This document shows, one piece after another, positions 1-62,597 of a DNA stretch of 64,000 nt (the stretch's first letter is position 1; each line of letters starts with the position of its first letter). The notes under the pieces were generated by a model. It saw nothing but the letters and a program-made list of their open reading frames with translations, was not told the DNA's origin and searched no databases. The stretch lies in sequence record KM607001; one strand, 5' to 3'. Position numbers and translations under genes: made by a program. Source of the stretch: Enterobacteria phage RB33.

Positions 1-2178
1 TTAGGCCGCAAGGGCCTTCATAGTTTTAGCGATTTGGGAAACTTCATCATCACTTAAAGAGTTGCGATAACCGATGAAGTCGGAAACAATACGGAATTTC
101 TTGGTAAACTCAGCAACCATTTTATCACTGTTTTTTGAAGCATTATTTGATAATACATCAAAAAGATTAGTTACTGTCCAGATGTCATGACCAATGGTAT
201 CTTTTCCACCATTAAAATATACACCCTGTAATGAACTAACCATATTAGCGAGTCGTGTATATTCTTCAGAAACTTCATCTACACTGAAGTACTTCATCAT
301 AAAATCTAGCTCAGGATACTTGATAATTTTATCAATATATCGTTTAGCTGAACTTGAATAACCTACATACTTATCATAATCTACATCATCAAAAGCATCT
401 ACATATAAATCACGTAAAGCTTCAAAAATACATTGGCACTGACCGAGTTCTTTTACCTTTTTCTGTAAAAGCGGACGAATAACATAAAATTCATTAATGC
501 CAATAAGATTAGCCATACGAATCAAAATATTCATAGATGGATGACAAAGAGATGTAGTACCATCCATAGAGAAAATATCAGAACGATGCATATACGCTAC
601 ATAACCAGTAATTTCATCTGCTTCTGACGTGAGCGTAAATAATTCCTCTTTTTCCCAGCGCCCGTCTTTAATTTCAAACTTAAATGCTGTAGCAGCTTTA
701 GGACGAGGAGCTTTACTTTTAACTACCTTTGGAATATAGCTTTTAACTAAAGCTTCAATTTCTGACAAATAATGAATGTTAACTTCATCACTTTCAAACA
801 TCGCCATAATGTCAGGAAGCAAATCAATCTGCGATTCTACTTCTGGATTAATAAACAGAAGGCGTTCGTTGTGATGAATATTTAAAGTGTTATTAAATTC
901 ACTATCATCTAACGCATGTGCTAATCCACGGACAATATTAACACGATTTTTAATATTATCAATAACGATATTAATTTTTGTTGTATTAATACCAAACAGA
1001 CGATAACTTGATGCAATGGCTGAAGTTTCATGACTTTGCTTAATGCGTTTCAGTCGAGGGTCAAGATTTACTTCATACACAACTCCTGCATTGCATAACT
1101 TACTGTCAGGTTCAAACATGCTTTGCATCTTTTTATATGACAGATTTTTAGTCGTGAATTTGACTGAATTACTAATCATATAATCTCGAGCAGAATACCC
1201 CATCTTCATCAATTCACGGTATGTGTGACGAGGAGATGTAGATTCTTTAAATCGTTTTACATCTTCATTAAATGCTTTCTCACTAAGCTCTTTAACTCGT
1301 TCAATAATATTTTTACGAGTACGATCATCCAGTGAAAGAGCTTCACGAGATGGAGCAATATCAAGTGAACCCATTGGAAACTTAATGTAATTCACTTCAT
1401 TGCGAATGCTTAGCCAGTTACGGTCTCTAATAACACCATCGATAGGATAAACAATACCACCATAGATAGCATATAATCCACCACGATCAGGCCAGTATCT
1501 TTCTGGATTTACGCCGTAATAATCATCAAAATCCGGAAAATAATCAATTTCGCGGTCAAGACCATTAATGATAGCCAAATCTTTGAATGGTCGCATGATA
1601 TAAGAAACTTCATAAGCAAAGTTTCTAAAGTCTTTTTCTTCAACTGGAACTACGATTTCAATACCAGTTTTATCATCTGGACCCATTTCTTTTACGAATG
1701 TAGGTTTAATCTGTGGTCCATCACCATCCATGTAAGCTACATAACCACGAATTTCACCTTTATGATACGAAGTAATACTAAACGTATCAGTATAACTAAA
1801 CGGAGATTTAGAACCTAAACCAAATCCGCCAATGAAATCGTTAGATTCAGCCTTAGATGAACTGAAGTATGAATTATACAGACCAGGAGAATTATCATCA
1901 CCCTGAATATCAAAATCACTCATACCCGGACCAAAATCTCGACAAACAAATCGCGGATCTAAACGTCCAGGAACTTGTATAATAAATTTTTCAGGATTTC
2001 CATTAAGTGCATGAGCATCAATCATGTTAGTAATCAATTCACGGACTACTGCGCGAATCTTGTTTGTATACAAATCAGATGACAGAATTTTAAATACTTT
2101 AGGAGATGCTGTGATGCTAAATGCTTTTGATTTAGAACCATTACCAAGAATTGTTTCTTTTTCAGTGGTGATAATCAT
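1..2178 (-). CDS. rIIA: rIIA protein, complete (725 aa); stop codon at window edge
   Basis: 725-aa ORF; N-terminus [16 protein letters not shown] and length match T4 rIIA as remembered. Confidence 0.9.
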
Positions 2179-2447: not shown

Positions 2448-4267
2448 TACTGGCTCATCCATTCTTTACGAAGGTCAGCGTTATCTCCCATGAGCATTTC
2501 AAAAAGCTCTTTCCAGTTCTCAGGAAGTTTAACAACATCATATACTGGATTTTGAATCATCTCACGATATTCAGATTTTTCCAAAGAGCCAAGTCCTTTA
2601 ATATAACGGATGCTATGTTTAGGTAGAGCATCTTTGGCACTCTCATATTCAGCGACTGTATAAAACCATTCTTGTTTTTTGCCGACCTGAGCGATGATTA
2701 CAGGAGTTTTGACAAAACGAATTCGTCCTTGCTCAAACAATTCTGGCCAATTACTAAAAAATCCGAGCAGAGAAGGATAAATGCTTCCTAGACCATCATG
2801 GTCAGCATCAGTCATAATAGCAATATTATGATAATTCAAGTTTTCAGCTTTTTCACCAAGAACTAATCCAGTGATTGCGCAAATATCAAATAGTTCTTTG
2901 TTTTTAAGCATATCAGCATATGACATACCCCAACTGTTGAGAACTTTACCACGTAATGGATAACCACCATGAAGTTCTTTATCACGAACATCAATAAGAT
3001 ATCCGATAGCCGAATCACCCTCAGTCAAGAACAATGTAGTATCAGCATCTTTACCACAAAGATTCGCTTTAATATGTTTATGAACCTTAGCTTTAGAAGC
3101 CTTTTTAGCTGCTTTAGTTTCTGCTGCTTTTTCTGCCGCCAATTTACGAGCCAAAGCAGCTTCAATAATCGGCATTAAAATTGCTTCATTATTTAGAATA
3201 GCACGTGAAATCTTTTTAGCATCAAGTTGAATATGACTACGAATTTCGCCAAATGGAGAAGTCAAACGCTCTTTAGTTTGAGAATCAAATCGCATGTTTT
3301 TCATATCACGAACAAACATAACGATAGTCAAACATTCTTTGACACGTGCTTTAGTTACATCAATTTTGAACTTACGTTTGATTTGTGGAATAAGGTCTTC
3401 ACAAATATCATCCATAACACAGTCAATGTGATGGCCACCATTCTTAGTGTGAATGTTATTCACGTAAGTTAATTGACGAAATCCATCCGGTGAACGACCA
3501 ACCGCAATAGAACAATTTTCTTGCTCTTGAACAATAGCATGTTCATCATACTGCCGTGCATATTTCTTAAAATTACCCTGAACCTTTTTACCATTAAAGG
3601 TAAATTGAATATCAGGATAAACAACAGCAAGTGTCTGGAGACGATCTAATGTAATGTCAAGATAAACTTGGGACAACTCATTAGTTTCAAATGACATAAA
3701 ATCAGGAATGAAAGTAACACGAGTTCCTTTCCATTTTCCAGGAATATCTTCCCATGATTTATTTTCCATGCCATTTGAACAACGAACTACAATATTATTT
3801 TGACCATCACCAGTTTCACCGACAAACATCACAGAAAAAATGTTTGTCAAACTAGAACCAACACCGTTCATACCGCCGGTGACGCGTTCTTTATCATCAC
3901 CGAAGTTACCACCTGCTTTTGGAATAGTCCATGCAGCAACAGGACCAGGAATTTCTTCACCGGTAGGTGTTTTAACCATCGCCTGTGGAATACCGCGACC
4001 GTTATCTTCAACTGTTACTTGATTGTTTTTAATAGTAACATTAATTTTATTTGCGAATTTAAACTTAGTACGAATACCTTCATCTACTGAGTTATCGATA
4101 ATTTCATCAATAAGCTTAACAAGACCAGGTACATACTGAACACTTTCCCATTTACCAAACAGAAAGCGCTCATGCATTTCATTAGCTGAAGAGCCAATGT
4201 ACATGCCGCTACGCTTTTTGATATGTTCAATATCGCTCAGAATTTTAATTTCATTCTTAATCATCAC
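2447..4267 (-). CDS. 39: DNA topoisomerase II large subunit (GyrB-like ATPase), contiguous gene 39 (606 aa)
   Basis: 606-aa ORF with GHKL ATPase and toprim-like motifs (NGRGIP, TEGDSA); one uninterrupted reading frame. Confidence 0.9.
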   Translation of the reverse strand: MMIKNEIKILSDIEHIKKRSGMYIGSSANEMHERFLFGKWESVQYVPGLVKLIDEIIDNSVDEGIRTKFKFANKINVTIKNNQVTVEDNGRGIPQAMVKTPTGEEIPGPVAAWTIPKAGGNFGDDKERVTGGMNGVGSSLTNIFSVMFVGETGDGQNNIVVRCSNGMENKSWEDIPGKWKGTRVTFIPDFMSFETNELSQVYLDITLDRLQTLAVVYPDIQFTFNGKKVQGNFKKYARQYDEHAIVQEQENCSIAVGRSPDGFRQLTYVNNIHTKNGGHHIDCVMDDICEDLIPQIKRKFKIDVTKARVKECLTIVMFVRDMKNMRFDSQTKERLTSPFGEIRSHIQLDAKKISRAILNNEAILMPIIEAALARKLAAEKAAETKAAKKASKAKVHKHIKANLCGKDADTTLFLTEGDSAIGYLIDVRDKELHGGYPLRGKVLNSWGMSYADMLKNKELFDICAITGLVLGEKAENLNYHNIAIMTDADHDGLGSIYPSLLGFFSNWPELFEQGRIRFVKTPVIIAQVGKKQEWFYTVAEYESAKDALPKHSIRYIKGLGSLEKSEYREMIQNPVYDVVKLPENWKELFEMLMGDNADLRKEWMSQ

Positions 4268-4319
4268 TTATCCTCGTTTGGTTTCGGGAATATTATACTC
4301 CAATAATCATAAAGCTAAA

Positions 4320-4335
4320 GGCCCGAAGGCCTTTT
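4320..4335 (-). terminator. GGCC-CGAA-GGCC hairpin followed by T-run
   Basis: aaaGGCCCGAAGGCCtttt directly downstream of the 4334..4603 ORF. Confidence 0.5.
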
Positions 4336-4603
4336 ATTTAAAACGAATAGTCGAATCCTTGAAGAATAGTCCAGAACATACTGTTCCTTCTACTTTCTGC
4401 CCAGTAGGTCCAATAGCACGAAATCCAGTATGCTGGAAATCATTTTCAGAGCAACCGAACCAATTATATCCAGTGATTTCAATATTAGTAAAACCGCTTG
4501 AAGACAAAACTTTGGTTGCATTATCAGCATCAGTACATCCTATTAAAGACACTGCTAATACTAATGCTGCAATAGAACGATTAACATATTTCATAATTTT
4601 CAC
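4334..4603 (-). CDS. putative lipoprotein (signal peptide + lipobox LIGC)
   Basis: 89-aa ORF; N-terminal hydrophobic segment ending LIGCTD. Confidence 0.6.
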   Translation of the reverse strand: MKIMKYVNRSIAALVLAVSLIGCTDADNATKVLSSSGFTNIEITGYNWFGCSENDFQHTGFRAIGPTGQKVEGTVCSGLFFKDSTIRFK

Positions 4604-17101: not shown

Positions 17102-17266
17102 TTACTCTTCTTTTTCTTTAGATTCCTCTTTTTTCTTTTTAGGAATCTGTTCAGGACCTTTATTTACTACAGCGCCTGATGTTGTTCCAGTAGAGATATT
17201 TTCAGGACTACCACCTGAATCTCCAGCGACCATATCTTCTTTGATAAATTCTTTATATGTTTTCAT
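17102..17266 (-). CDS. 54-aa mini-protein with internal-protein-like capsid-targeting N-terminus
   Basis: coordinate-checked translation MKTYKEFIKEDMVAGDSGGSPENISTGTTSGAVVNKGPEQIPKKKKEESKEKEE; below the track cutoff. Confidence 0.5.
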   Translation of the reverse strand: MKTYKEFIKEDMVAGDSGGSPENISTGTTSGAVVNKGPEQIPKKKKEESKEKEE

Positions 17267-17670
17267 ATTAACCTCTATTCATAAAAGCATTAAAAATTTG
17301 GTCATCAATAGATGGCGCAGTAATATTTTCTGCATCATTTAGCAAATCATTAATTTCATCAGATAGCATAACACATGTACCTTTATTTCCTGTAATTGTT
17401 ACTGCGCAATTACGAACGTTTTCTTTATTAAATTTTAGGTTAATATTTTCGTAATGAAAATCCTTTAATGCTGAATATATTTTTAAAATAAAATTGTCTT
17501 TTACTACAATAAACCCAACCTCACTATTAAAACGTGGTTCATGGAAACTGTAATAAACCTTTTCATCTATAAAATCGTATGAAATTTTTTCCATTTTTAA
17601 ATATGAAAATTCAGAACTATACATATTAACCTTTATTCATAAAAGCATTAAAAATTTGGTCATCAATAGA
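17264..17670. repeat. 49-bp direct repeat (48/49 identical) at the 3' ends of two paralogous genes
   Basis: catattaacctCtattcataaaagcattaaaaatttggtcatcaataga at 17264-17312 and 17622-17670. Confidence 0.8.
17268..17624 (-). CDS. hypothetical protein (61.1 position), 118 aa
   Basis: ORF in track; C-terminus DDQIFNAFMNRG shared with the next ORF. Confidence 0.6.
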   Translation of the reverse strand: MYSSEFSYLKMEKISYDFIDEKVYYSFHEPRFNSEVGFIVVKDNFILKIYSALKDFHYENINLKFNKENVRNCAVTITGNKGTCVMLSDEINDLLNDAENITAPSIDDQIFNAFMNRG

Positions 17671-24690: not shown

Positions 24691-27387
24691 TCAGCCAAAC
24701 AGGAAGTCTAACGAAGCTTTTTCTTCATAGTCCATGCCAGCCGATTCACACATACCCGCAAGCGGTTTAACAAACGATTTTTGGAACAAAGTTGAGTGGT
24801 CAATCCAAGATAGTACGTCAGAACGAATTTCTTTTGGAAGTTCTGTACCCGATGGCCAAGCAATGCACTTGTCACCAAATGGATTTCCTTCACGTAATGG
24901 AAGAACCATTACTTTATTTCCATCCAAAATTGGAGCTACACCCAGACCACTAACAGCTCGACGATAAGTTAGCACACCGCGAATATGGAACGGGCATTTA
25001 AATCCTGGCCAACCTTTATCATCATATTTCGCTATATCGTTCGCAGTTTTTACTTCAGCAATAACTTTATAGTCGAGTTGACGATATTCTTTCTCGAAGT
25101 TCTTGTAATATTCTTGGACAGACTCTTCGCCTTCCTGAAGAATACGACGAATACTTTCTTCGAGAGCTTCTTGCACTGCTTTTGGTGTTGAACTCTGCTG
25201 AGTTTCCATACCCATAATTTTTAGATGCGGTTCAGCAAATCGTTTATCTTCCATATCATAAACGTTCAGAGCATAACGCTTTTTCGCTTTCCAAAATCCA
25301 CCAACGCCCTTTGAACCAAGTGGAGGACAAGAAATAGCTTCACGGTCCATATGCATCAGATGCTCGCGGTTATTCATATAATCGCATAACTCACGATATG
25401 CAACATCAATCATAGGTTCCATCTTTTTCTTACCGAACTGATTCATAAATTCAACCAAATCGTTCTGCTCTTTGAATCGGTCAAGACCAACTTTTTCAAT
25501 AACTTTATCTACACAAACATATACCGAATCAGTATCACCTGCTGCGATGAAATCTTCATCATTAGTTCCGCATACTTTATTCAGATATTCATTAATTTTA
25601 CGAGCAATCCACTGAATACCGACTTGGCCAAAAATTGTGATAGCAGTAGCATTTCGCAAATCATAGTAACGGAAATGAATATTACCAAGAGCACCATAAA
25701 GACTGTTAATAAGAATTTTACGGTTCAGCTGATTTGTATTAGCAAGTGTAGCAGCTTTTTCACATTCCTCAATCAGACTATTGAGAACAGATTCAGTATA
25801 ATTCGACAGTTCATTTAAGAAATCATCATTGAACTTAACATATCGTTCAACTTCTGGTTTAGTTGAACAGGACCCTGCGCCTTTCATAATAATCTTTTTA
25901 ATAGCTTCGGCATTCATTTCTTCAGCGAACATTTTCTTTTTCCAGTCTTTACGCTGGAAAAATACTTTAGCGATTTCCTTTGGAATGATACCTTCTTGAT
26001 GCTTATCATACATCCATCCATTCGGAGAACAAGAATATTCATCACTCGGTTTAGGAGCTGTTCCTGCGATATATTCATGAATTGGATGAACTTTAAACTG
26101 CCCACGAATAGTCTCAGGACTAATGTTAACCTGACGAATAATGCTCGGATACAGAGACGTCAAGTCAAAACTCATAATATATCGACGAGCAATTGGTTTA
26201 GGTTCAAATACAAATGCACCCGGAAAACTTTGTTTAACGTGTGAACCTTGTTGAGGAATAACCTTATGTTCACCTTTCAATGAGTTAAAAATAATAGCAT
26301 CCCAAGTTTTAATAGGACTCATTACACCGGAAAAAGGCATTTTAGCGTAATAAGACATACTTAAAACTAGATCAATAAACCCACGAATTTTATCAATTGC
26401 TTGAACTGATTCTACGTCAATGATGTTATAACTAATGTATCGTTGATGATTAGTCTCACGAAGTTTATTAATAGGACCGTCGTATGGTAATTTACCCTTT
26501 TTGGTTTCATGTTGAGCAACTGATTCCAAAGAGAATGACGGCAAATTAGTAAAAGCGAATTTCTTGTACAAATCTAAATAATCAAGAATAGATACGCCAT
26601 CAATAGAATAAATTTCTTTGCTACCGTACATATTTTGAATTAGTTTAGATTTTACTCGACCGATTGGAGAGAAGCGTTTCATACTACGTTCACCGAGAAC
26701 CATTTTAACGCGATTCATGATATACGGAACGTCAAATCCCTCAATATTCCAACCAGTAAAAATAGCAGGTCGTTTCTGTTCCCAGAGATTGATATATTCC
26801 ATGAGCATATCACGCTCATTATCGAATGGCATATAAATTACTCGGTCAAGAATTTCTTGAGGAACTTCATCACCACCTTCGCAGTCGAGCTTAGCAGCTA
26901 ACTTTGCATCCCATTTTGATACTGAACCGTACATTGAATTCAACAAATCAAAGACGTAAAAACGATCGTCAATTGAATCATAATGAGTGATAGCATCAAT
27001 TTCATATTCTGCTTTCATTGGGTCAGGAAATTTATCACCAGTAACCTCAATGTCGCAGTTAGCTACACGAACAAATTTTCGGTCATAAACAATTTCTGAA
27101 CCATATGTATCACTGATGTAAGCGAGTTTAAAATCGTTCATACCGAGAGCTTCGAGACCGATGTCTTCCATTCGCTTCATCCAGTCTCGCGCATCTTTCA
27201 TTGATGGAAATTTTTGAGGAGCGCAATTTTTACCATAAATGTCTTTGTATTTTGACTCTTCCTTACAATGTCTAAACATAGTTGGAAGATATTCTACTTC
27301 GCGAGTACGTTCCTTTCCATTTTCATCAATATAACGTTCAACAATATTATTTCCGACTGTTTCGATAGAGATATAAAATTCTTTCAT
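24691..27387 (-). CDS. 43: DNA polymerase gp43 (family B), 898 aa
   Basis: exo motifs FDIE/DxE, pol motifs DTDS and KILINSLYG; 898 aa as T4 gp43. Confidence 0.95.
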   Translation of the reverse strand: MKEFYISIETVGNNIVERYIDENGKERTREVEYLPTMFRHCKEESKYKDIYGKNCAPQKFPSMKDARDWMKRMEDIGLEALGMNDFKLAYISDTYGSEIVYDRKFVRVANCDIEVTGDKFPDPMKAEYEIDAITHYDSIDDRFYVFDLLNSMYGSVSKWDAKLAAKLDCEGGDEVPQEILDRVIYMPFDNERDMLMEYINLWEQKRPAIFTGWNIEGFDVPYIMNRVKMVLGERSMKRFSPIGRVKSKLIQNMYGSKEIYSIDGVSILDYLDLYKKFAFTNLPSFSLESVAQHETKKGKLPYDGPINKLRETNHQRYISYNIIDVESVQAIDKIRGFIDLVLSMSYYAKMPFSGVMSPIKTWDAIIFNSLKGEHKVIPQQGSHVKQSFPGAFVFEPKPIARRYIMSFDLTSLYPSIIRQVNISPETIRGQFKVHPIHEYIAGTAPKPSDEYSCSPNGWMYDKHQEGIIPKEIAKVFFQRKDWKKKMFAEEMNAEAIKKIIMKGAGSCSTKPEVERYVKFNDDFLNELSNYTESVLNSLIEECEKAATLANTNQLNRKILINSLYGALGNIHFRYYDLRNATAITIFGQVGIQWIARKINEYLNKVCGTNDEDFIAAGDTDSVYVCVDKVIEKVGLDRFKEQNDLVEFMNQFGKKKMEPMIDVAYRELCDYMNNREHLMHMDREAISCPPLGSKGVGGFWKAKKRYALNVYDMEDKRFAEPHLKIMGMETQQSSTPKAVQEALEESIRRILQEGEESVQEYYKNFEKEYRQLDYKVIAEVKTANDIAKYDDKGWPGFKCPFHIRGVLTYRRAVSGLGVAPILDGNKVMVLPLREGNPFGDKCIAWPSGTELPKEIRSDVLSWIDHSTLFQKSFVKPLAGMCESAGMDYEEKASLDFLFG

Positions 27388-27403
27388 AGATATTCCTTAG
27401 TTT

Positions 27404-27426
27404 ATAGCCCGAGTTATTAGGCTCTT
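27404..27426 (-). promoter_or_regulatory. hairpin upstream of the gene 43 SD, candidate gp43 translational operator
   Basis: minus-strand RNA GAGCCUAAUAACUCGGGCU just 5' of AAGGA-ATG of gene 43. Confidence 0.45.
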
Positions 27427-27447
27427 GATATATTATACTCCAAATAA

Positions 27448-27461
27448 GGGGCCGAAGCCCC
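27448..27461 (-). terminator. GGGGC-CGAA-GCCCC hairpin
   Basis: between 27466..27687 ORF and gene 43. Confidence 0.45.
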
Positions 27462-27465
27462 TTGC

Positions 27466-27687
27466 TTAAATTAATACCAGTTGTCGGTGAAAAATTGTCA
27501 ATCCATCTGCATTAATTGACTTAACGACTGCTGTAAAATGTTTTTGTTCTGGATGAACTAGTTTTTGAAATTCTACTTGAAATTTTAGTTGGAGGTTTTC
27601 TGGTAAATCAAAAAGTGTTTCTGTCGCAGAAAGATTATATTTTTCTTTAAGAGACGTCATGTATTCTTGTGGAGTTATAGCAGTCAT
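27466..27687 (-). CDS. hypothetical protein (~73 aa)
   Basis: ORF in track; start moved to MTAITPQEY. Confidence 0.45.
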   Translation of the reverse strand: MTAITPQEYMTSLKEKYNLSATETLFDLPENLQLKFQVEFQKLVHPEQKHFTAVVKSINADGLTIFHRQLVLI

Positions 27688-62123: not shown

Positions 62124-62597
62124 TTATTTGAATGATTTAACGTACTGAATAGAACCTTTACTATTCACGAAAGCGATTTTACCATTTTTATTATACATTG
62201 TAGCAGTACGTTGATAGCCATAAGTTTGTTTACCAGATTGATAACCAACTAATGCGAAATTATCTTCACCCATTTTATTCTGTTTAGCGCGAATACGTTC
62301 ATGACCATGTGCCATAAGAACCTTAGCATCACCGGTTGCAATGGATCGACGAGTTTTTTCATCTTCAACTGTATTAACAAAGTCGTCAAATGAATCAAAT
62401 TTAGCATGAGATTTATTATACAGTTTTCCATCTACTGCATAATTATATCCCTGTACATCCATCTCAACTTCTGTACCATCATCCAGTACAGCAGTGATTT
62501 TCTGTCCTTTTTTAAATTTCAAAAGATCAGTAAAAGATTCAGCAATAATTTGAGAATTAATAGCTGCTTCAGTAATAAATTCTTGATATGTTTTCAT
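62124..62597 (-). CDS. internal protein (IPII/IPIII family) with capsid-targeting N-terminus, 157 aa
   Basis: N-terminus MKTYQEFITEAA matches the internal-protein CTS as remembered; position before e. Confidence 0.6.
   Translation of the reverse strand: MKTYQEFITEAAINSQIIAESFTDLLKFKKGQKITAVLDDGTEVEMDVQGYNYAVDGKLYNKSHAKFDSFDDFVNTVEDEKTRRSIATGDAKVLMAHGHERIRAKQNKMGEDNFALVGYQSGKQTYGYQRTATMYNKNGKIAFVNSKGSIQYVKSFK

What the first reader, a model, noticed from the sequence alone, without database searches (positions are those of the whole stretch)
17102..17266. Unannotated 54-aa ORF with an internal-protein-like capsid-targeting N-terminus
Between primase gene 61 and the next ORF lies MKTYKEFIKE-DMVAGDSGGSPENISTGTTSGAVVNKGPEQIPKKKKEESKEKEE. 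The first 10 residues closely match the N-terminus of the internal-protein gene at 62124..62597 (MKTYQEFITE) and end in an I-x-E site of the kind cut by the prohead protease. If functional, a roughly 44-residue Gly/Ser-rich, Lys/Glu-tailed peptide would be packaged into heads and injected with the DNA.
Basis: partly seen in the sequence, partly recalled or inferred. Interest (0 to 1): 0.6.

Follow-up and report, generated by a model that had tools for sequence, protein, structure and literature searches.

The report
Capsid-mimic mini-protein with head-targeting leader
This 54-codon gene of a T4-type phage (gene 61.1, function unknown until now) encodes a head-targeting leader, a head-protease cut site and a copy of the first ~30 residues of the mature major capsid protein, and a close relative's product is found already cut at that site in purified virus particles.

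Summary
The ORF is real (17102..17266, minus strand, 54 aa) but not unannotated. The window is phage RB32, where this is gene 61.1, "hypothetical protein". Its first 10 residues match the internal-protein leader at 8/10; the next best of 849 frames scores 4/10. It is identical at the four positions shown experimentally to matter for the T4 capsid targeting sequence (Y4, F7, I8, E10).

New findings:
- Residues 2-46 are homologous to major capsid protein gp23 residues 57-101, covering the cleavage site, N-fist and start of the N-arm (BLASTP E=2e-8; profile-profile 96%, E=1.6e-9).
- The gene belongs to a very large uncharacterised family found next to the primase gene across T4-like phages. Most members are 150-300 aa; T-even phages keep only the capsid-like peptide plus a leader.
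- The peptide co-varies with each phage's own capsid N-terminus.
- Many genera place a late promoter directly upstream.
- In published virion mass spectrometry of a Klebsiella relative (71% identical), all three confident peptides start just after the predicted Glu.

Verdict: most likely a prohead-targeted, protease-processed capsid-mimic peptide. Packaging in RB32/T4, injection and biological role remain untested.

The parts
17102..17266 (-). Gene 61.1: 54-aa ORF including the stop codon
   Evidence: ORF list and sequence. Annotated as 61.1 in RB32. Matches phrog_1823 over its full length, E=2.4e-33. tblastn found homologs in 1433 phage records.
17237..17266 (-). Codons 1-10, MKTYKEFIKE: CTS-like leader ending in the predicted gp21 site I-K-E|D
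   Evidence: 8/10 identity to the internal-protein leader at 62124..62597; next best of 849 frames is 4/10. Y4, F7, I8 and E10 are identical to the IPIII CTS positions shown to govern targeting and processing. Other genera show synonymous codon changes together with only conservative replacements. Both types of processed N-terminus observed in a relative start after a Glu; two of the three spectra start at the equivalent L-N-E site.
17153..17236 (-). Codons 11-38, DMVAGDSGGSPENISTGTTSGAVVNKGP: copy of the N-terminus of mature gp23* (N-fist and start of N-arm)
   Evidence: BLASTP of 61.1 residues 2-38 against gp23 57-93: 41% identity, ungapped, E=2e-8. hhalign of family profiles: 96.3% probability, E=1.6e-9, residues 3-46 against 58-101. 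Invariant M12, A14, G15, D16, G19, I24, G27, G31, P38. N-fist description from PMC9958956 and PMC9546572.
17105..17152 (-). Codons 39-54, EQIPKKKKEESKEKEE: Lys-cluster tail
   Evidence: A K/R cluster is conserved in nearly all homologs. In the profile alignment it aligns with gp23 'MVRR'.
17270..17283 (-). Ribosome-binding region (GAGG) and a degenerate late-promoter-like box TATGAATA, overlapping the end of the upstream 61.2-like ORF
   Evidence: Sequence. Other genera carry canonical TATAAATA 21-24 nt upstream of the ATG. RB32 has 7/8 with G at position 4. No exact TATAAATA occurs on the minus strand in the 41-61 cluster.
62124..62597 (-). Internal virion protein gene (DUF7412 / phrog_3155) whose leader MKTYQEFITE is the comparator
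   Evidence: Pfam E=5.7e-96 and PHROG 'internal virion protein' E=6e-102. It is the only other CTS-pattern ORF in the window.

Best explanation
Gene 61.1 encodes a prohead-targeted, protease-processed mini-protein.

Proposed mechanism:
1. The first 10 residues act as a capsid targeting sequence. Y4 and F7 tether the protein to the scaffolding core while the prohead assembles.
2. The prohead protease gp21 then cuts after Glu10 (I-K-E|D).
3. This releases a 44-residue peptide, DMVAGD...KKKKEESKEKEE.
4. The first ~28 residues of that peptide are a paralogous copy of the N-terminus that gp23 acquires at its own maturation cleavage (the N-fist and start of the N-arm).
5. The peptide can therefore engage whatever binds that segment of gp23. 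Before cleavage the candidates are the core or gp21; after cleavage, the capsomer interfaces.

RB32/T4 carry the minimal form of a family spread across the T4 superfamily. Longer members put a ~95-aa helical domain, sometimes with an SH3-like domain, in front of the same cut-site-plus-capsid-mimic module.

Shown: the ORF, the homologies, the conservation, the co-variation with the capsid protein, late promoters in other genera, and processed peptides in virions of a relative.

Inferred: packaging and cleavage in RB32/T4 itself, whether the peptide stays in the head and is injected, and what the mimicry achieves.
For: 1. Leader. It matches the IP leader at 8/10, a unique outlier. It is identical at CTS positions 4, 7, 8 and 10. 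The 10-residue CTS alone suffices to package foreign proteins (PMC9026906). K5 and K9 both occur in genuine IP leaders of JS98.

2. Capsid homology. The match to gp23 57-101 aligns I-K-E|D with gp23's own maturation site L-T-E|A.

3. Cut-site conservation. The P1 Glu is invariant and P3 is aliphatic in nearly all long and short homologs.

4. Leader under selection. It shows synonymous codon changes with only conservative replacements across genera.

5. Co-variation. T4-type peptides score 66-101 against T4-type capsid N-termini and 20-27 against marine ones. The HTVC008M and Melnitz-3 peptides each score best against the capsid protein of their own genome.

6. Late promoters. Canonical TATAAATA, or a 7/8 variant, lies directly upstream of the gene in many genera although the gene sits among replication genes.

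7. Virion mass spectrometry. In ValerieMcCarty04, the listed peptides were E.EMVAGDAGGNPQNIASGTTSGAVVNK.G (-10lgP 89.9 and 65.2) and E.MVAGD...K.G (54.4). No uncleaved K.LNEEMVAGD... peptide was listed. That homolog is 71% identical to RB32 gp61.1.

8. Expression timing. ipII and ipIII transcripts are also classed 'early' in T4, so early transcription does not exclude packaging.
Against: - There is no virion or prohead data for RB32 or T4.
- T4 gp61.1 protein was not detected in a time-resolved infected-cell proteome. A search restricted to fully tryptic peptides would, however, miss a processed N-terminus; this is inference.
- RB32/T4 lack an exact late promoter. They have only TATGAATA.
- The Klebsiella evidence is 3 spectra, below the authors' 15-PSM cut-off. 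The same preparation contained non-structural contaminants such as ExoA and Dda.
- Long-form homologs have no N-terminal CTS.
- The long form of Morganella phage MP1 is not in that phage's virion MS table.
- The JS98 leader (MKSFKEVMNE) has drifted from the strictly conserved IP leaders of the same genome.
- The mature peptide is acidic (pI 5.0), unlike DNA-binding internal proteins.
- A 4.6-kDa fragment could escape through the prohead pores, as other core fragments do.
Confidence: 0.55

Rival explanations
1. Transient assembly factor. gp61.1 enters the prohead, or binds gp21 or the core. There it acts as a competitor or pseudo-substrate for the gp23 N-terminal segment, timing cleavage or tuning core-shell contacts and head size. 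It is then cut and lost with the other core fragments. On this reading it is not a stable virion component and is not injected.
For: - It carries the same cut site and capsid mimicry as in the best explanation.
- gp23 N-terminal mutations A66D, A94V and G97S alter head length through core contacts.
- Small core fragments leave through 14-17 Å pores.
- PSM counts in virions are very low.
- The mature peptide is acidic.
Against: - The processed peptide was still present in CsCl-purified virions of a relative.
- No 61.1 phenotype is known. The literature search found only genome-table mentions.
Confidence: 0.2
2. Cytoplasmic decoy for anti-defence. An early-made mimic of the capsid protein N-terminus would blunt a host immunity sensor or protease that recognises gp23. 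This would fit the gene's position in the dmd / tifA(61.4) / sp / adfA(61.2) 'anti-TA island'.
For: - It lies next to known counter-defence genes, and other genes of that region have been proposed as anti-toxin candidates.
- Its transcript is early in T4.
- Co-variation with the phage's own capsid protein is what a decoy would need.
Against: - The family is conserved next to the primase gene even in phages of SAR11, Methylophilales, Sinorhizobium, Vibrio and Acinetobacter. Some of these lack the island genes; for example, Aes012 has 41-61.1-orf-61. That points to a core function rather than a host-specific one.
- Conservation of the protease P3 and P1 residues, and late promoters in many genera, are not explained.
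- The homology covers gp23 57-101. From background knowledge, the Gol region sensed by Lit is about residues 93-122.
- The peptide is processed in virions.
Confidence: 0.12
3. Replication accessory or expression element. Either the peptide partners with primase/helicase, or the ORF exists mainly to couple translation or late transcription into gene 61.
For: - The position immediately upstream of, or near, the primase gene is invariant across the superfamily.
- In RB32 the stop codon lies 2 nt from the gene 61 start.
- The late promoter could serve gene 61.
Against: - Tight coupling is not conserved. Gaps of 40-48 nt occur in RB69 and Stupor, and an intervening ORF occurs in Aes012, phiM12 and L156.
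- The amino-acid sequence is under strong purifying selection, with invariant residues over very deep divergence.
- The capsid homology and the cut site are unexplained.
Confidence: 0.08

Closest known systems
T4 internal proteins IPI/IPII/IPIII and other CTS-bearing head proteins (Mullaney & Black 1996, as summarised in PMC9026906)
   Same: - A 10-residue N-terminal leader of the MKTYxEFIxE type.
- An L/I-x-E gp21 site at its end.
- Early transcripts, as for ipII and ipIII.
- In a relative, a processed N-terminus in purified virions.
   Different: - The mature product is only 44 aa and acidic, not basic.
- It is highly conserved across the whole superfamily, whereas IPs are hypervariable.
- It is encoded in the replication cluster rather than at the IP loci.
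- Its body is a capsid-protein paralogue.
- Most family members have a long N-terminal domain instead of a CTS.
N-terminal region of T4 major capsid protein gp23 (maturation site, N-fist, N-arm)
   Same: Homologous over gp23 residues 57-101, including the cleavage motif, GD, NI..G.TSGAV and GP. The peptide co-varies with the capsid protein of its own lineage.
   Different: There is no HK97-fold body and no Pfam Gp23 hit. The Δ-domain is not detectably related to the family's N-terminal domain. It is a free peptide rather than part of the shell subunit.
T4 prohead core proteins that yield internal peptides (gp67, gp68, gp22 giving peptides II and VII)
   Same: Small proteins that enter the core, are cut by gp21 after Glu, and leave short peptides in or from the head.
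   Different: No sequence similarity was noted by eye to gp67, recalled from memory; no comparison was run. Those genes are late and lie in the head gene cluster. 61.1 lies in the primase/helicase cluster.
Cargo-loading or propeptide targeting in other capsid-like shells (giant-phage head protein propeptides, PMC5694885; encapsulin cargo-loading peptides, from background knowledge)
   Same: A short segment directs a protein into an assembling HK97-fold shell and may then be removed.
   Different: Here the retained part, not only the targeting part, imitates the shell protein's own N-terminus.

Membership tests
CTS-bearing T4 internal head proteins | N-terminal ~10-residue leader matching the CTS, with the targeting determinants at positions 4 and 7 | tested here: met
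   MKTYKEFIKE against MKTYQEFITE (window) and the T4 CTS; Y4 and F7 are identical. The K5 and K9 variants occur in JS98 IP leaders.
CTS-bearing T4 internal head proteins | gp21 cleavage motif L/I-x-E at the end of the leader (positions 8 and 10) | tested here: met
   I8-K9-E10, followed by D. The motif comes from PMC9026906. E is invariant and P3 is aliphatic across the family.
CTS-bearing T4 internal head proteins | Protein physically present in proheads or virions with a processed N-terminus | tested here: inconclusive
   Not testable for RB32. In the 71%-identical homolog of phage ValerieMcCarty04, three PSMs from purified virions start after Glu at or next to the predicted site. T4 protein was undetected in infected cells.
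CTS-bearing T4 internal head proteins | Basic, DNA-associated mature protein that is injected | tested here: not met
   The mature peptide has pI about 5.0, with 7 K+R against 9 D+E. Injection cannot be tested here.
CTS-bearing T4 internal head proteins | Hypervariable cargo that differs between closely related phages | tested here: not met
   The core is conserved from T4 to Acinetobacter, Aeromonas and Vibrio phages.
gp61.1 family (phrog_1823 / phrog_2086 / phrog_18642) | Significant profile match, and a position beside the primase gene | tested here: met
   phrog_1823 E=2.4e-33 and phrog_2086 E=2.3e-16. A profile search found 1837 cluster representatives with E<=1e-3. Synteny.
Major capsid protein Gp23 (Pfam PF07068, HK97 fold) | HK97-fold shell domains (P, A and I domains) | tested here: not met
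   There is no Pfam hit at E<=1. Only 45 residues are homologous, to gp23 57-101. Database names such as 'major capsid domain-containing protein' over-state this.
Anti-toxin island proteins (Dmd, TifA, AdfA) | Homology to, or demonstrated inhibition of, a toxin | not tested
   Only the genomic neighbourhood links them. There is no sequence relationship; the Pfam AdfA hit belongs to the neighbouring ORF, not to 61.1.

The most novel reading that the evidence does not exclude
All T4-like phages, from coliphages to SAR11 and rhizobial phages, encode beside their primase gene a protein carrying a 'spare copy' of the capsid protein's cleavage site and new N-terminus. This module co-evolves with the capsid protein. 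After gp21 processing inside the prohead, the freed peptide would occupy N-fist/N-arm binding sites that lack a gp23 N-terminus, for instance around the vertices or the portal, or it would control when gp23 is cut. That would make it a previously unrecognised universal component of T4-type head maturation. [quoted passage not shown]
Probability: 0.2. Interest if true: 0.85.

Novelty: new variant of a known kind. Interest (0 to 1): 0.62.

Why it matters
T4 head assembly is among the best-studied assembly pathways, and its parts list is thought to be complete. A conserved, processed peptide that copies the capsid protein's maturation site and N-terminal arm would add a new player to prohead maturation. 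It is encoded outside the head gene cluster and has never been studied.

It would also do three further things:
- Give a function to a family with about 1800 cluster representatives in metagenomes.
- Suggest where the capsid targeting sequence used in T4 protein-delivery and vaccine platforms came from.
- Correct misleading database names such as 'major capsid protein'.

The hypothesis is directly testable by targeted mass spectrometry and a simple deletion in T4.

Tried and rejected
- **Pfam on gp61.1 and on the long forms:** no hits.
- **Structure of the long form (AF2):** only the N-terminal helical domain is confident, and Foldseek against PDB found nothing.
- **Is the long-form N-terminal domain related to the gp23 Δ-domain?** No. 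hhalign is significant only from the cut site onward.
- **Is the DUF7201 neighbour equivalent to T4 gp40?** Rejected by eye; RB32 gp40 shows no obvious coiled coil or transmembrane segment, but no prediction was run.
- **Is Morganella MP1 gp018, found in virion MS, the homolog?** No. The primase is gp026, so the homolog lies upstream of it and is absent from the table.
- **Exact late promoter upstream of 61.1 in the window:** none found.
- **N-terminal domain elsewhere in the window:** none found.
- **The search for homologous proteins with the gp23 N-terminus:** returned only fragments. I used IMG/VR loci instead.
- **Fine-scale co-variation within Straboviridae:** uninformative, because the gp23 N-terminus is almost invariant there.
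- **Literature searches for 'gp61.1' and 'gene 61.1':** only genome tables. One numeric-term search was wasted.
- **Supplements of the T4 head MS paper (PMC5694885):** no protein list containing 61.1.

Full report
**What is there**

The window is Escherichia phage RB32, a T4-type Tequatrovirus. It is 100% identical to NC_008515, with window coordinate = record coordinate + 119. The ORF at 17102..17266 on the minus strand encodes MKTYKEFIKEDMVAGDSGGSPENISTGTTSGAVVNKGPEQIPKKKKEESKEKEE.

In the public record it is annotated as gene 61.1, hypothetical protein. The local gene order is 41, dmd, 61.4, sp, 61.2, a 61.2-like ORF, 61.1, 61. 'Unannotated' is therefore wrong, although no function has been assigned. 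A full-text search for 'gp61.1' found only two genome tables.

The gene has a GAGG ribosome-binding site. Its stop codon lies 2 nt before the start of primase gene 61. A strong early-type promoter sits upstream of dmd, and no terminator-like site lies between them. In T4 the transcript is classed as early, and the protein was not detected in a time-resolved infected-cell proteome (PMC9697503 Table S2).

- The leader matches that of the internal virion protein gene at 62124..62597 (DUF7412 / phrog_3155) at 8 of 10 residues and 26 of 30 nucleotides. The upstream DNA is not similar.
- Of 849 Met-initiated frames of at least 30 aa in the window, the next best match is 4/10. A relaxed CTS pattern hits only these two ORFs.
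- According to the review of Black's work, the first 10 residues of IPIII suffice to package foreign proteins. Targeting depends mainly on residues 4 and 7, and processing on residues 8 and 10. gp21 cuts after L/I-x-E (PMC9026906).
- RB32 gp61.1 has Y4, F7, I8 and E10, identical to the IPIII CTS.
- Its two differences, K5 and K9, both occur in genuine internal-protein leaders of phage JS98: MKTYKEFIAE in ipIII and MKTYQEFIKE in an unannotated ORF.

**The peptide body is a copy of the capsid protein's N-terminus**

- BLASTP aligns gp61.1 residues 2-38 with RB32 gp23 residues 57-93 without gaps, at 41% identity and E=2e-8.
- A profile-profile comparison used 55 distinct gp61.1 homologs and 77 distinct gp23 N-termini. 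It gave 96% probability and E=1.6e-9 for residues 3-46 against 58-101.
- The alignment places I-K-E|D of gp61.1 on F-L-T-E|A of gp23. That is the site where gp21 removes the 65-residue propeptide.
- The rest of gp61.1 aligns with the first residues of mature gp23*, which form the 25-residue 'N-fist' and the start of the N-arm.
- That gp23 segment is disordered inside the unexpanded head. It appears to contact the scaffolding core. After expansion it is externalised, links four subunits and helps form the Soc site (PMC9546572 and PMC9958956).
- This homology explains why some databases call gp61.1 homologs 'major capsid (domain-containing) protein'. There is no HK97-fold body and no Pfam hit.

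**A large modular family**

- tblastn finds the gene in 1433 phage records across Straboviridae.
- The gene lies between the helicase and primase genes, directly upstream of primase in most and one ORF away in some, e.g. Aes012.
- Most genera encode a long form of 148-177 aa. It has a ~95-aa N-terminal helical domain that AF2 models confidently, and a disordered capsid-like tail.
- Short forms of 52-64 aa occur in T-even-like genera. Their leaders include MKTYKEFIKE, MKSFKEVMNE, MKTFKDFINE, MKTYKEFVKLNE, MKTYKEFVTE, MTLLEKYKQSLSE and MKQLVEE.
- MAFFT aligns the short leader with the segment '...IFKELPLFE' that precedes the cut site in long forms. The leader may therefore be what remains after loss of the N-terminal domain. 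No copy of that domain exists elsewhere in the window.
- A profile search of 1.84 billion cluster representatives found 1837 members at E<=1e-3 and 598 at E<=1e-10.
- Many members match only the N-terminal domain and show modular architectures:
  - module A, the N-terminal domain;
  - module C, the [LIV]-x-E site plus capsid-like peptide plus K/R cluster;
  - module D, a C-terminal α/β domain of unknown function.
- In pelagiphage HTVC008M and Methylophilales phage Melnitz-3, A-B and C(-D) are separate adjacent genes.
- In phiM12 and a marine contig (L156), the family gene lies one ORF upstream of primase; in phiM12 the primase is annotated, in L156 it is inferred from size and an N-terminal zinc-finger motif.
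- All matching PHROGs are of unknown function.

**Evidence bearing on mechanism**

1. **Cut site.** The Glu at P1 is an invariant alignment column. P3 is aliphatic in almost every long or short member: LFE, LYE, IKE, INE, MNE, LNE, VTE, LSE, VLE, IEE.

2. **Selection on the leader.** Across genera the leader shows synonymous changes: GAA/GAG, TTT/TTC, TAT/TAC and four Val codons. Replacements are only conservative: T/S, Y/F, E/D, F/V, I/V/M.

3. **Co-variation with the phage's own capsid protein.**

| Phage | Capsid N-terminus | Companion peptide |
|---|---|---|
| RB32 (T4-type) | FLTE\|AEIGGDHGYNATNIAAGQTSGAVTQIGP | FIKE\|DMVAGDSGGSPENISTGTTSGAVVNKGP |
| HTVC008M | FLGE\|IANVTGSAV... | ...QQE\|DIANVAGDGAV... 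|
| Melnitz-3 | FLSE\|AAPTNSTGSAV... | ...KTE\|DAPANASGSAV... |

   The score matrix is block-diagonal. T4-type peptides score 66-101 against T4-type capsid N-termini and 20-27 against marine ones. Each marine peptide scores best against the capsid protein of its own genome. Further marine members carry 'E-x-AP-x-N-x-x-G' tails like cyanophage-type capsid N-termini.

4. **Late promoters.** An exact T4 late promoter TATAAATA lies 21-24 nt upstream of the start codon in several short-form lineages, and at -32 or -35 in two long-form lineages. 7/8 variants (C/G/A-ATAAATA) sit at the same place in Acinetobacter-phage and other long forms. RB32/T4 have only TATGAATA, which overlaps the end of the upstream ORF.

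5. **Mass spectrometry in a relative.** A 2026 paper analysed CsCl-purified virions of Klebsiella phage ValerieMcCarty04. Its supplementary table lists WKM80554.1, 'putative capsid protein'. The sequence is MKTFKEFVKLNEEMVAGDAGGNPQNIASGTTSGAVVNKGPETLPKKKRDKSKPET. Its accession follows that of the primase, and it is 71% identical to RB32 gp61.1.
   - Three confident spectra are listed: E.EMVAGD...VVNK.G twice (-10lgP 89.9 and 65.2) and E.MVAGD...VVNK.G once (54.4).
   - Both N-termini are non-tryptic and follow Glu. The first lies exactly after L-N-E.
   - The uncleaved tryptic peptide K.LNEEMVAGD... is not listed.

**Evidence against, and caveats**

- Three spectra is below the authors' 15-PSM threshold. 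Their preparation also contained non-structural proteins.
- The long form of Morganella phage MP1 is absent from that phage's virion MS table.
- T4 gp61.1 was undetected in infected cells. A fully tryptic search would miss the processed N-terminus; this is inference.
- JS98's own 61.1 leader has drifted from its strictly conserved IP leaders.
- Long forms have no N-terminal CTS.
- The mature RB32 peptide is acidic (pI 5.0, 4.6 kDa). It could leave through the prohead pores as other fragments do.

**Interpretation**

The best-supported reading (confidence about 0.55) is that gp61.1 is targeted to the prohead by its CTS-type leader and cut by gp21 after Glu10. This yields a 44-residue peptide that mimics the new N-terminus of gp23*.

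What the mimic does is not known. It may fill or compete for sites that bind the gp23 N-terminal segment. Or it may act only transiently as a pseudo-substrate or regulator.

Rivals, with evidence detailed in the rival section:
- a transient assembly factor that is lost after cleavage (0.2);
- a cytoplasmic anti-defence decoy in the 'anti-TA island' (0.12; PMC9391042 preprint);
- a primase-linked or expression role (0.08).

**Comparison with known systems**

It works like a CTS-bearing internal head protein in its leader, cut site and processing. It fails two descriptive features of that group: basic charge and hypervariability. The decisive feature, presence in RB32/T4 heads, is untested. It is homologous to a 45-residue segment of gp23 but is not a capsid protein.

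A side observation is that gp23's own P7-P1 segment (FGSFLTE), the IP CTS (YQEFIAE) and the 61.1 leader (YKEFIKE) share the pattern aromatic-x-x-[F/L]-[L/I]-x-E. The CTS may therefore itself imitate the capsid protein's pre-cleavage segment. This is inference from the sequences.

**Novelty and score**

No paper in the searchable library discusses the function of this gene or family. I rate it a new variant of a known kind: a propeptide-targeted, gp21-processed head component. Interest is 0.62, because the key steps are still unverified in RB32/T4 itself.

Noticed in passing
window 17268..17624 (-): The 118-aa ORF directly upstream of 61.1 (RB32ORF033c) is a partial duplicate of the C-terminal half of adfA / 61.2. 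Pfam AdfA positions 113-211 match at E=8.8e-8. It ends in SIDDQIFNAFMNRG, whereas 61.2 ends in SIDDQIFNAFMNKG.
   Followed up: partly
L003 (RB69 NC_004928) 899..1365: In the RB69 record the long-form 61.1 gene is split into RB69ORF032c (N-terminal domain) and 'gp61.1' (92 aa). A related IMG/VR contig (L013) has one intact 155-aa ORF whose C-terminal 88 residues are identical to residues 5-92 of the RB69 'gp61.1' ORF. This is either a frameshift/pseudogene or a sequencing error in RB69.
   Followed up: partly
L155 (JS98 EF469154) 27261..27554 (-): An unannotated 97-aa ORF between trna.4 and 57B starts with a perfect CTS-type leader, MKTYQEFIKE. It is probably an unannotated internal protein gene. 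JS98 orf112, orf114 and orf135 also carry CTS leaders but are annotated only as hypothetical.
   Followed up: no
L046-L065, L044, L023/24, L039 upstream of the 61.1 start; window 17270..17283: A T4 late promoter box (TATAAATA) sits immediately upstream of 61.1 in many genera, inside an otherwise early/middle replication gene cluster. In RB32/T4 it is degraded to TATGAATA, where the 61.2-type ORF abuts the gene.
   Followed up: partly
L158 (HTVC008M) 3477..4556; L160 (Melnitz-3) 3106..3624: In marine T4-like phages the capsid-mimic peptide is the N-terminal part of a separate, larger protein (HTVC008M gp143, 359 aa; Melnitz gene 30, 172 aa). Their N-termini (MKTFTDF..., MSFKFDD...) loosely recall the T-even leader.
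   Followed up: partly
L156 79..2563; L159 2127..4522; L158 2135..3474: In the marine contig L156 and in rhizobial phage phiM12 the block is DUF7207 protein, 61.1-family protein, DUF7201-like membrane-anchored coiled-coil protein (Pfam-confirmed only in phiM12), then primase. HTVC008M keeps only the DUF7207 plus A-domain gene pair. All are of unknown function.
   Followed up: no
L002 4486..6051 (RB32 gene 23), residues 59-65: The gp23 segment just before its maturation cut (FGSFLTE) has the same pattern as the internal-protein CTS (YQEFIAE). From memory, so does the gp24 propeptide (INELLRE). The CTS may have evolved as an imitation of the capsid protein's pre-cleavage segment.
   Followed up: no
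public annotations of 61.1 homologs: Several records and UniRef name this 50-160-aa protein 'major capsid protein' or 'major capsid domain-containing protein'. That name rests only on the ~45-residue similarity to the gp23 N-terminus and is misleading.
   Followed up: yes
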